Positions 9,012-12,130 of a stretch of 64,000 nt of DNA are shown piece after piece. The notes under the pieces were generated by a model. It made no database searches, was not told where the DNA came from, and was given only the letters and a program-made list of their open reading frames with translations. Position numbers and translations under genes: made by a program. Positions within the stretch are counted from its first letter, which is position 1, and every line of letters begins with the position of its first letter. Source of the stretch: Escherichia coli (GTDB taxonomy: Bacteria > Pseudomonadota > Gammaproteobacteria > Enterobacterales > Enterobacteriaceae); assembly GCF_011045215.1 (NCBI RefSeq), contig NZ_CP049201.1; one strand, 5' to 3'.

Positions 9012-10149
9012 TCAGGCGTCACGCGGTAACCCTTTTTCAATCACCCGAACCAGACGCTGTTTTTTCGGCAATTGCACTTCGACTATGCACGCATTTCGCC
9101 TCTCGATTTGCTGCGCCATCGCCCACGCTATGTGCTCATCAAGAAGTGGGTGCTCACCTTTGCGACTCTCCAGCGCCGCCAGAATCGTTTCATCCCAGGG
9201 CGCATTGCCTAATGCCACGGCGATATTACGCAGCCAGCGCAGGTGACCTATACGGCGAATCGCCGAACCTTCCGTGACTTTTAAAAACCTCTCTTCGCTC
9301 CAGGCGAATAACTCAATGAGTTCCGGTGCGTGTAGCGGCTTACGCGGGCTGAAATCGTCTTCTGTAGTGAGTTGTGAATAGCGATTCCACGGGCAGATAA
9401 GCTGGCAGTCATCGCAACCGTAAATACGGTTTCCCATTAACGGTCGCAACTCTTCCGGGATCGCCCCTTCCAGTTCGATGGTGAGATAAGAGATACAGCG
9501 GCGAGCATCGACGGTATATGGCTCGACGATGGCACCGGTCGGGCAAATCGTCATACAGGCCACGCATTTGCCGCATCCTTCCTCGACTGGTTGATCCACG
9601 GGCAGCGGAATATCGACCAGCAATTCGCCTAAAAAGAAGAACGAACCGGCCTCGCGATTGAGGATAAGTGAGTGCTTACCTGTCCAGCCGAGCCCAGCTT
9701 TTTCAGCTAACGGGCGCTCGAGAATAGGCGCAGAATCGACAAACGGTCTAAAATTCAGCGAAACACAATGTTGCTGAATCATCTCGCCCAGCTTTTTGAG
9801 TCGGTTGCGCAGAAGTTTGTGATAGTCACGGCCCAGCGCATAACGGCTAACATAGCCGAGTTTGGGGTTTTTCAGCGTGCTGGCAAATGCGGCGTTAGCA
9901 GGAAGGTAATTCATCCGCACGCTGATCACGCGCAGCGTACCGGGCAATAACTCATGGGGGCGAGCGCGCAGCATACCGTGACGTGCCATCCAGTCCATTT
10001 CGCCGTGGTATTGTTTGTCCAGCCATGCTTGCAGTTTGGGCTCGGACTCGCTGAGATCGGTATCGGTAATACCTACCTGCTGAAAGCCCAGTTCCAGCCC
10101 CCACTGTTTAATTTTTTGCGCTAACTGATTGAGATCGAGGGGCTCTGAC

Positions 10150-10151
<2 letters not shown>
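9012..10151 (-). CDS. queG: Epoxyqueuosine reductase QueG (YjeS), cobalamin/4Fe-4S enzyme
   Basis: ORF 9012..10259; 379-aa protein starts [15 protein letters not shown] at ATG 10149-10151; ferredoxin-type Cys clusters (CGKCVACMTICP, CDDCQLICP). Confidence 0.9.

Positions 10152-12130
<1,979 letters not shown>

What the first reader, a model, noticed from the sequence alone, without database searches (positions are those of the whole stretch)
10149..10152. queG and nnr start codons overlap on a CATG palindrome
The divergent genes queG (minus) and nnr (plus) begin at ATG codons that share two nucleotides (CATG at 10149-10152), so the first codons of both genes are encoded by the same 4 bp. Their promoters and ribosome-binding sites must therefore lie inside each other's coding sequence, which suggests tight or mutually exclusive expression. 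The nnr start was chosen to match a remembered length of 515 aa.
Basis: seen in the sequence. Interest (0 to 1): 0.25.

Follow-up and report, generated by a model that had tools for sequence, protein, structure and literature searches.

The report
queG and nnr share start codons
Two back-to-back E. coli genes, queG and nnr, begin on the same four bases (CATG), with each gene's control signals sitting inside the other gene; this is conserved but already annotated and described, so it is a tidy textbook case rather than a discovery.

Summary
CATG at 10149-10152 holds the queG ATG (10151->10149, minus strand) and the nnr ATG (10150-10152, plus strand). RefSeq annotates the same 2-nt head-to-head overlap in E. 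coli, including K-12.

The overlap is conserved and under constraint:
- The spacing is fixed in 81 Enterobacteriaceae species and in Pantoea.
- 76 of 81 species keep the in-frame overlapping nnr ATG.
- About 22 species have no other start codon before the conserved protein core.
- A GAGGGG Shine-Dalgarno sequence lies 7 nt upstream of the overlapping ATG. The alternative ATG at 10165 has none.
- Synonymous variation collapses at queG codons 1-12 and at nnr codons 2-4 and 12-14.

Each promoter lies inside the other gene:
- An extended -10 for queG (TGGTATACT, 10191->10183) sits in nnr codons 12-14.
- A TAAAAT -10 for nnr (9749-9754) sits in queG codons 133-135.
- Both fit published 5' ends at about 10175 and 9762, which give a 413-nt antisense overlap.

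Published work recovers double-stranded RNA (dsRNA) here and lists queG-nnr as a divergent excludon.

Mutually exclusive expression has not been shown, and use of the first nnr ATG in E. coli is inferred, not measured. Verdict: real, ordinary, already known. Interest is low.

The parts
10149..10152 (.). CATG palindrome holding both start codons (queG ATG 10151->10149 on minus; nnr ATG 10150-10152 on plus). The 2 nt shared are A10150 and T10151.
   Evidence: The same annotation appears in RefSeq E. coli records. CATG is kept in 80 of 81 Enterobacteriaceae species and in Pantoea.
9012..10151 (-). queG CDS (379 codons plus stop), tRNA epoxyqueuosine(34) reductase
   Evidence: ORF. TIGR00276 equivalog, 509.6 bits, with the family core starting at residue 14; aligns to B. 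subtilis QueG 5D08 from residue 6. 379 codons without indels in all 81 species.
10150..11697 (+). nnr (yjeF) CDS, 515 codons plus stop, bifunctional NAD(P)HX epimerase/dehydratase, read from the overlapping ATG
   Evidence: PRK10565 equivalog, 1023 bits, residues 1-509. The general family N-domain TIGR00197 starts only at residue 17. Pfam domains.
10137..10142 (+). Shine-Dalgarno sequence GAGGGG for the nnr ATG at 10150 (7-nt spacer), lying in queG codons 3-5
   Evidence: Anti-SD duplex energy -7.2 kcal/mol, in the top 3% of random 20-mers of the window. The 20 nt before ATG 10165 give -3.2 kcal/mol. Nearly invariant in 81 species.
10165..10167 (+).
   Evidence: Not conserved. It is ATG in 32, GTG in 16 and TTG in about 8 of 81 species, and is absent (CTG/CTA/GAG/ATA) in about 20-22 species. 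No Shine-Dalgarno sequence. A start at the equivalent position is the only usable one in 4 Kosakonia species, where a 1-nt insertion puts the first ATG out of frame.
10113..10161 (.). Nearly invariant core: the translation-initiation regions of both genes on opposite strands (queG codons 1-13 and nnr codons 1-4)
   Evidence: Synonymous codon entropy is 0.26 bits for queG codons 1-12 against a gene mean of 1.15. That is the lowest of 299 contiguous runs of the same size. nnr codons 2-4 (ACG GAC CAT) give 0.03 against a gene mean of 1.32. The plus strand 10100-10200 folds less stably than all 200 shuffles (z = +2.75).
10183..10191 (-). Candidate queG promoter: extended -10 TGGTATACT (minus strand, 10191->10183), encoded by nnr codons 12-14 (AGT ATA CCA, including the rare ATA codon)
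   Evidence: No synonymous variation in 77 species although the flanking codons vary. Five of the 10 invariant informative nnr codons lie here or at the start. Pantoea has TGGTAAACT. Matches the published queG transcript 5' end about 8 nt downstream.
10152..10175 (-). queG 5' untranslated leader (about 24 nt), antisense to nnr codons 1-9. It has no recognisable Shine-Dalgarno sequence.
   Evidence: The overlap in Conway et al. ends at U00096.2 4392114, which is window 10175. p19-captured dsRNA reads run to window 10170 on both strands (CAUGACGGACCAUACAAUGAAG / UCAUUGUAUGGUCCGUCAUGUC) (supplement of PMC7373196). Shine-Dalgarno energy is -2.2 kcal/mol, no better than about 60% of random 20-mers.
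9749..9754 (+). Candidate nnr-operon promoter -10 TAAAAT, inside queG codons 133-135 (AAT TTT AGA, including the rare AGA codon)
   Evidence: Lies in the invariant block 9741-9762 across 81 species. queG codons 133, 134, 135 and 137 are 4 of only 6 synonymously invariant codons among 308 informative ones. The codons differ in Pantoea although the amino acids are the same. The plus-strand promoter of Conway et al. at U00096.2 4391701 maps to window 9762, 8 nt downstream.
9762..10175 (.). Region transcribed on both strands: about 388 nt of nnr leader antisense to the queG 5' coding region, plus the queG leader antisense to the first codons of nnr
   Evidence: Conway overlap length is 413 nt. Lybecker dsRNA MS-212 at 4391717-4392100 and p19 cluster S-361 at 4391754-4392109 (U00096.2) map to window 9778-10161 and 9815-10170. 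queG-nnr is listed among the 16 divergent excludons of MG1655 (PMC12288877).

Best explanation
This is a genuine, evolutionarily fixed head-to-head junction in which the intergenic control region has been absorbed into both reading frames.

Shown:
- queG and nnr start on the two strands of one CATG.
- The roughly 85 bp around it (10113-10197) encode short lineage-specific N-terminal tails. QueG residues 1-13 and Nnr residues 1-16 lie outside the conserved family cores.
- The same DNA shows nucleotide-level constraint.

Inferred from conservation and published 5' ends:
- The queG promoter is an extended -10 at 10191->10183, inside nnr. It fires leftward from about 10175 and gives a 24-nt leader without a Shine-Dalgarno sequence.
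- The nnr(-tsaE-amiB-...) promoter has its -10 at 9749-9754, inside queG. It fires rightward from about 9762 and gives a 388-nt leader. That leader ends in a strong Shine-Dalgarno sequence (GAGGGG) 7 nt before the overlapping ATG.
- The promoters are therefore face-to-face, and the two mRNAs are complementary over about 413 nt.

Shown by others: dsRNA from this interval is recovered in vivo, and RNA-seq scores the pair as a divergent excludon.

Inferred only: RNA polymerase collision or promoter occlusion, together with RNase III cleavage of the duplex, makes each gene dampen the other.
For: - Sequence and annotation.
- Fixed spacing in 81 species across about 30 Enterobacteriaceae genera, and in Pantoea.
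- nnr first ATG is in frame in 77 of 81 species and present in 76. About 22 species have no other ATG/GTG/TTG before the conserved S-I-P-H motif: with two loci corrected by eye.
- Shine-Dalgarno energies: -7.2 kcal/mol for ATG1, -3.2 for ATG2.
- Unstructured initiation region.
- Loss of synonymous variation exactly at the start region and at the two -10 elements, including invariant rare codons ATA (nnr 13) and AGA (queG 135). The same amino acids use different codons in Pantoea at the nnr-promoter block.
- Family cores start at QueG residue 14 and Nnr residue 17.
- Published 5' ends at window 9762 and 10175, dsRNA clusters, and reads covering the CATG on both strands.
- Excludon listing.
- The 80-nt core is identical in 89% of 5425 E. 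coli genomes.
Against: - I found no direct measurement of either N-terminus or initiation site. The supplements of two start-site papers do not mention these genes. The retapamulin (Ribo-RET) supplements are not held.
- A and T of the nnr ATG are fixed by the queG ATG anyway. Conservation of ATG1 therefore adds only one free base (G10152), and codons 2-4 may be conserved for the queG leader rather than for Nnr.
- Nnr residues 5-11 are not conserved and tolerate indels. Four Kosakonia species start nnr at the second ATG.
- The simple sigma-70 consensus scan found no promoter. Neither -10 has a good -35.
- The Conway 5' ends come from RNA-seq, not dRNA-seq. No Thomason antisense TSS is listed for this cluster.
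- Reciprocal regulation is untested.
Confidence: 0.8

Rival explanations
1. In E. coli, Nnr translation actually starts at the second ATG (10165, giving a 510-aa protein). The two CDSs then do not overlap: the starts are 13 nt apart, and the CATG 'shared start' is an annotation choice of the longest ORF.
For: - A start codon (ATG, GTG or TTG) occupies codon 6 in about 56 of 81 species.
- In 4 Kosakonia species the ATG at the equivalent position is the only in-frame start.
- Nnr residues 1-16 lie outside the general family domain and residues 5-11 are variable.
- Conservation of ATG1 and codons 2-4 can be explained by the queG start codon and leader on the other strand.
Against: - About 20-22 species have no start codon at codon 6 or anywhere before the conserved core, so ATG1 must be used there.
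- The frame from ATG1 is kept in 77 of 81 species, including a +12-nt in-frame insertion in two species.
- ATG2 has no Shine-Dalgarno sequence (-3.2 kcal/mol, ordinary for random sequence), whereas ATG1 has GAGGGG at the ideal 7-nt spacing.
- The NCBIfam equivalog model covers the protein from residue 1.
Confidence: 0.15
2. The overlap is a neutral by-product of start-codon drift into a very short intergenic region and has no regulatory consequence. The conserved nucleotides reflect only ordinary translation-initiation and promoter constraints on each gene separately. The antisense overlap and dsRNA are tolerated noise.
For: - In more distant relatives, queG is already head-to-head with tsaE at gaps of only 8-86 nt, without overlap. 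Compactness therefore predates the overlap.
- The overlap has been lost without obvious harm in Kosakonia and S. enterica subsp. arizonae.
- No reciprocal expression data were found.
- Both are low-expression housekeeping genes with no opposing functions.
Against: - The locus is among the top 20 coding-gene dsRNA clusters in stationary phase (5,635 RPM) and was independently recovered by dsRNA immunoprecipitation.
- It is scored as an excludon in at least 50% of 58 transcriptomes.
- The junction is strongly conserved over a whole family.
- None of this proves regulation.
Confidence: 0.35
3. queG starts elsewhere, for example at an upstream in-frame codon as in the 384-aa Salmonella annotation, so the real overlap is longer or different.
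For: Many Salmonella and Citrobacter rodentium QueG entries are annotated as 384 aa. Salmonella carries a second CATG at nnr codon 6, giving a possible 17-nt overlap.
Against: - E. coli has ATT, not ATG, at that position.
- The published queG 5' end (about 10175) would leave only about 9 nt of leader for it.
- All 81 species keep the ATG at 10151, and QueG homology to solved structures starts at residue 6.
- There is no alternative ATG downstream until residue 52.
Confidence: 0.05

Closest known systems
E. coli K-12 queG (yjeS, b4166) / nnr (yjeF, b4167) junction as annotated in RefSeq NC_000913.3
   Same: Identical architecture. queG 4392928-4394067 (minus) and nnr 4394066-4395613 (plus) overlap by 2 nt on CATG. 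The core sequence 10113-10192 is identical to MG1655.
   Different: Only strain-level substitutions elsewhere (for example Nnr H19 versus Y19). The window carries one tRNA-Gly gene upstream instead of three.
Divergent excludons / 5'-overlapping divergent operons (Listeria excludon concept; E. coli examples rsd-nudC, asd-yhgN, cpxR-cpxP in PMC7373196; ExcludonFinder PMC12288877)
   Same: Divergent neighbours whose transcripts overlap at their 5' ends. dsRNA is recovered. The pair is explicitly listed as queG-nnr among 16 divergent excludons and as p19 cluster S-361.
   Different: Classic excludons pair genes of opposing function and show reciprocal expression. That has not been shown here. Here the coding sequences themselves touch (intergenic distance -2), whereas excludon pairs in E. 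coli average a 95-nt intergenic region.
Compact head-to-head queG / tsaE-amiB junctions in other Proteobacteria
   Same: queG is divergent from the tsaE-amiB operon with very short spacers (8, 40, 82, 82 and 86 nt) in five relatives with 52-62% identical QueG.
   Different: No nnr lies between the two genes and no CDS overlap occurs. The 2-nt overlap was seen only in Enterobacteriaceae and Pantoea.
Bidirectional (back-to-back, symmetric -10) promoters
   Same: Divergent genes are served from one short stretch of DNA. The queG -10 contains the palindrome GTATAC.
   Different: The two promoters here are face-to-face and about 430 bp apart, each inside the other gene. They are not back-to-back elements sharing one -10 region.

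Membership tests
Head-to-head (divergent) overlapping protein-coding genes | Two CDSs on opposite strands share nucleotides at their 5' ends | tested here: met
   ATG 10151->10149 (queG) and ATG 10150-10152 (nnr) share A10150 and T10151. The RefSeq annotation is the same.
Head-to-head (divergent) overlapping protein-coding genes | Both annotated start codons are the ones used in vivo | not testable with these tools
   Only indirect support is available. About 22 of 81 species have no other nnr start. A Shine-Dalgarno sequence of -7.2 kcal/mol precedes ATG1, against -3.2 for ATG2. The queG ATG is invariant and consistent with homologue N-termini. No initiation-profiling or N-terminal data could be retrieved.
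Divergent excludon | Transcripts of divergent neighbours overlap at their 5' ends | tested here: met
   Literature data read here: Conway overlap of 413 nt (window 9762-10175), and ExcludonFinder lists queG-nnr. My conserved -10 elements lie 8 nt upstream of each published 5' end.
Divergent excludon | The overlap forms dsRNA that is processed by RNase III | tested here: met
   Taken from the literature, not from my own data. p19-captured cluster S-361 (5,635 RPM, among the top 20 coding clusters) and Lybecker dsRNA MS-212.
Divergent excludon | Reciprocal or mutually exclusive expression of the two sides, typically genes of opposing function | not tested
   No expression data for promoter or rnc mutants at this locus were found. 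QueG (tRNA queuosine maturation) and Nnr (NAD(P)HX repair) have no evident opposing roles.
Bidirectional back-to-back promoter | Two divergent TSSs arise from one shared or symmetric -10 region between the genes | tested here: not met
   The published 5' ends are at 9762 (plus) and 10175 (minus), so transcription is convergent over 413 nt. The -10 candidates are about 430 bp apart.
QueG, tRNA epoxyqueuosine(34) reductase (TIGR00276) | Scores above the curated equivalog cut-off, with DUF1730 and 4Fe-4S domains | tested here: met
   509.6 bits against a cut-off of 200. Pfam PF08331 and PF13484. Homology to 5D08 and 5D6S.
Nnr, bifunctional NAD(P)HX dehydratase/epimerase (NF007856 / PRK10565) | Scores above the curated equivalog cut-off, with YjeF_N and Carb_kinase domains | tested here: met
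   1023 bits against a cut-off of 703, covering residues 1-509. Pfam PF03853 and PF01256. Homology to TM0922 2AX3.

The most novel reading that the evidence does not exclude
The roughly 50-bp shared initiation core, together with the 413-nt sense/antisense overlap, could be a real regulatory node. Stationary-phase firing of one face-to-face promoter might, through polymerase collision and RNase III cleavage, inversely set the level of QueG (queuosine maturation) against the long nnr-tsaE-amiB-mutL-miaA-hfq transcript. That would couple tRNA-modification and Hfq supply. The unexplained invariant block at 9666-9686 might serve as an upstream control site.
Probability: 0.12. Interest if true: 0.4.

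Novelty: already known. Interest (0 to 1): 0.15.

Why it matters
The case shows clearly how bacteria can dispense with an intergenic region. Promoters and ribosome-binding regions are written into the first codons of the neighbouring gene. This forces rare codons (ATA, AGA) and freezes synonymous sites.

For annotation, the comparative evidence favours the 515-aa Nnr and 379-aa QueG starts. It also flags the 384-aa Salmonella QueG calls as probably too long.

It does not open a new question. The overlap is in the reference annotation, and the transcript overlap, the dsRNA and the 'excludon' label are already published.

Tried and rejected
- The consensus sigma-70/terminator scan of 9700-10600 found nothing. 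The promoters were instead located by conservation and published 5' ends.
- Looked for direct start-site evidence. The supplements of the tetracycline start-site paper (PMC4909307) and of Giess et al. (PMC5576327) do not mention yjeF/yjeS. The supplements of Conway 2014, Meydan 2019 and Saito 2020 are not held. Thomason 2015 is not held.
- One literature search on 'overlapping start codons' returned only irrelevant papers.
- An Rfam scan of 9500-10500 at E<=1 gave no RNA family. I therefore rejected a known riboswitch or leader element.
- Considered a conserved RNA structure in the shared core. I rejected it because both strands fold less well than shuffled sequence.
- Considered plus-strand TACAAT (10161-10166) as an nnr promoter. 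I rejected it because it is not conserved and its TSS would fall downstream of both ATGs.
- Considered TTGAGA (10129-10134) as a -35. I rejected it because no -10 lies at a usable spacing.
- Tried to sample intermediate Enterobacterales families (Yersinia, Serratia, Proteus). The tools returned either close relatives or representatives with 52-62% identical QueG. The exact phylogenetic origin of the overlap is therefore not resolved.

Full report
**1. Observation**

The window around the finding reads gggctctgaCATGacggaccatacaATGaag. C10149-A-T-G10152 is a CATG palindrome. On the minus strand, ATG 10151->10149 opens a 379-codon frame ([15 protein letters not shown]...). On the plus strand, ATG 10150-10152 opens a 515-codon frame ([15 protein letters not shown]...).

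NCBIfam equivalog models identify the two proteins. TIGR00276 identifies QueG (509.6 bits, cut-off 200) and PRK10565 identifies Nnr (1023 bits, cut-off 703). The expected Pfam domains are present.

The window is Escherichia coli. The 401 bp around the site match 5425 of 5426 complete E. coli genomes at 95-99.8% identity. RefSeq annotates the same 2-nt overlap in every record I opened, including K-12 MG1655 (queG 4392928-4394067 minus; nnr 4394066-4395613 plus).

**2. Conservation of the overlap**

A scan of one genome per species returned 80 Enterobacteriaceae loci. With the window this makes 81 species-level sequences. In all of them QueG is exactly 379 codons, and the queG/nnr junction has the same spacing.

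The junction alignment shows CATGACGGACCAT as nearly invariant. The nnr starts break down as follows (with two Pseudescherichia-type loci corrected by eye):
- 77 of 81 species keep the first ATG in frame with nnr, and 76 keep it as ATG.
- About 22 species have no other ATG, GTG or TTG before the conserved S-I-P-H-x-x-W motif. The overlapping ATG is their only plausible start.
Elsewhere it is a non-start codon (CTG, CTA, GAG or ATA).

The overlap is lost in 5 species. Four Kosakonia carry a 1-nt insertion that puts the first ATG out of frame with an in-frame TGA, so nnr must begin at the second ATG. S. enterica subsp. arizonae has CATTATG.

Pantoea (Erwiniaceae) keeps the CATG overlap. Five more distant relatives (QueG 52-62% identical) have queG head-to-head with tsaE. 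They have no nnr and no overlap, and the gaps are 8-86 nt. The compact divergent arrangement is therefore old. The 2-nt overlap was seen only in the Enterobacteriaceae/Erwiniaceae lineage.

**3. Which nnr ATG is used**

The 20 nt before ATG 10150 contain GAGGGG (10137-10142) with a 7-nt spacer. Its anti-SD duplex energy is -7.2 kcal/mol, reached by only 3% of random 20-mers of the window. ATG 10165 has -3.2 kcal/mol, reached by 36% of random 20-mers. Plus strand 10100-10200 folds less stably than all 200 shuffles (z = +2.75), as expected for an initiation region. Together with the comparative data this favours ATG 10150.

There is one caveat. A10150 and T10151 are fixed by the queG ATG regardless, and codons 2-4 also form the queG leader. 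Conservation of 'ATG ACG GAC CAT' is therefore not independent proof of translation. I found no direct initiation-site or N-terminal data. I put the chance that E. coli uses ATG1, alone or together with ATG2, at about 0.8.

**4. Nucleotide-level constraint and embedded signals**

I measured synonymous codon entropy in columns where the amino acid is conserved.
- queG: the gene mean is 1.15 bits, but codons 1-12 give 0.26. That is the lowest of 299 contiguous runs of equal size.
- queG: only 6 of 308 informative codons are synonymously invariant. They are codons 4, 6, 133, 134, 135 and 137.
- nnr: the gene mean is 1.32 bits, but codons 2-4 give 0.03.
- nnr: codons 12-14 (AGT ATA CCA) are invariant, although neighbouring codons and residues 5-11 vary and tolerate indels.

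Read on the minus strand, nnr codons 12-14 are TGGTATACT, an extended -10 (10191->10183). Read on the plus strand, queG codons 133-135 are TAAAAT (9749-9754), within the invariant block 9741-9762. Both elements force rare codons: ATA in nnr and AGA in queG. In Pantoea the same QueG amino acids are encoded by other codons at this block. The constraint is therefore on DNA, not protein.

The general family models begin only at QueG residue 14 and Nnr residue 17. The roughly 85 bp between them (10113-10197) is in effect an intergenic control region that both genes translate as lineage-specific N-terminal tails.

**5. Agreement with published transcript maps**

The supplement of the p19 dsRNA paper (PMC7373196) lists cluster S-361 (yjeS, yjeF, 5' overlap) at U00096.2 4391754-4392109. 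It lists Lybecker dsRNA MS-212 at 4391717-4392100. It also gives the Conway et al. overlap: a plus-strand promoter at 4391701, a terminator at 4408049, an overlap of 413 nt, and an overlap end at 4392114.

Two reads in the same supplement (AUUGAGAUCGAGGGGCUCUGA and CAUGACGGACCAUACAAUGAAG) calibrate the coordinates as window = U00096.2 - 4381939. The published 5' ends then fall at window 9762 (nnr operon) and 10175 (queG). Each lies 8 nt downstream of the conserved -10 that I had located independently.

The promoters are thus face-to-face, each inside the other gene. The nnr mRNA has a leader of about 388 nt, antisense to the first third of queG. The queG mRNA has a leader of about 24 nt, antisense to nnr codons 1-9, with no recognisable Shine-Dalgarno sequence. 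ExcludonFinder (PMC12288877) lists queG-nnr among the 16 divergent excludons of MG1655 and yjeV-queG-nnr as a 'noncontiguous operon'.

**6. Mechanism**

Shown:
- the shared CATG;
- conservation and nucleotide-level constraint;
- transcript overlap and dsRNA (from the literature).

Inferred:
- the two -10 assignments;
- use of ATG1 in E. coli.

Speculative:
- that polymerase collision or occlusion and RNase III cleavage make the two genes antagonise each other.

No reciprocal expression data exist for this pair as far as I could find. The functions (queuosine maturation versus NAD(P)HX repair) are not opposed. The overlap has been lost in some lineages. A neutral 'compaction' reading therefore remains viable (about 0.35).

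**7. Comparison and novelty**

Divergent CDS overlaps are the rarest overlap class, which is attributed to the need for upstream regulatory signals (PMC2174442). That makes this a nice example. But the overlap itself is in RefSeq, and the antisense overlap, dsRNA and excludon status are published. My synonymous-site and rare-codon analysis adds detail and supports the annotated starts. It also suggests that the 384-aa Salmonella QueG calls are over-extended.

Its 'mutually exclusive expression' is plausible but unproven.

Verdict: real, conserved, already known. Interest is about 0.15.

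Noticed in passing
window 9666-9686 (plus strand AAGTGAGTGCTTACCTGTCCA; queG codons 156-162, GWTGKHS): A second block of about 21 nt inside queG has almost no synonymous variation across 81 Enterobacteriaceae. Pantoea encodes the same residues with different codons. The block lies 76-96 nt upstream of the nnr-operon 5' end. It could be an upstream control site or another embedded element. No convincing promoter or known motif was found.
   Followed up: partly
L085 2501-2517 (Salmonella enterica) versus window 10149-10167: Salmonella has a second CATG at nnr codon 6 (AACATGAAG). Many records therefore call QueG as 384 aa, starting 5 codons upstream, which gives a 17-nt head-to-head overlap with nnr. 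Given the queG 5' end mapped in E. coli (about 10175), that start would have only about 9 nt of leader and is probably an over-extension.
   Followed up: partly
L054, L056, L062, L064 (Kosakonia spp.), junction region: A 1-nt insertion after CATGACGGACCATA puts the first ATG out of frame. It then opens a 20-21-codon ORF, and nnr must start at the next ATG. The CATGACGGACCAT block is still invariant there, which shows that it is constrained for reasons other than Nnr coding.
   Followed up: partly
window 10159-10161 (minus-strand AUG in the queG leader): The queG leader contains an out-of-frame upstream AUG (GUAUGG, 10161->10159) that opens a 17-codon ORF ([17 protein letters not shown]) across the queG start. 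The underlying CCAT is kept in about 90% of species and is absent in Buttiauxella. Whether it is translated or affects queG initiation is unknown.
   Followed up: no
window 8667-8742: The window has a single tRNA-Gly(GCC) gene between orn and queG. K-12 and the closest strain, PapM-32-1, carry three tandem copies, glyV, glyX and glyY. This is either copy-number variation or a collapsed assembly of the tandem array.
   Followed up: partly
window 8976-9029 (+): The 17-codon yjeV ORF (MRFYFYSQAVDESGVTR) overlaps the 3' end of queG convergently by 18 nt (annotated). ExcludonFinder lists yjeV-queG as a convergent excludon and yjeV-queG-nnr as a noncontiguous operon. This implies plus-strand read-through antisense to the whole of queG.
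   Followed up: no
window 11669-11697: nnr and tsaE overlap by 29 nt on the same strand (tsaE ATG at 11669, nnr stop ending at 11697). This is an ordinary co-directional overlap consistent with translational coupling within the operon.
   Followed up: no
window 11227-11246 (nnr codons 360-365) and about 11331 (codon 394): A few further synonymously invariant nnr codons cluster here (CTGGCAATCAATCCCGATAA). They might mark an internal promoter or another embedded signal for downstream genes. This was not examined further.
   Followed up: no
window 9747-9755 and 10182-10191: Both embedded -10 regions resemble sigma-S-type -10 elements (TCTAAAATT with C at -13; TATACTTA). The dsRNA cluster is about 10-fold more abundant in stationary phase than in exponential phase (5,635 versus 579 RPM). 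This hints at stationary-phase control and is untested.
   Followed up: no
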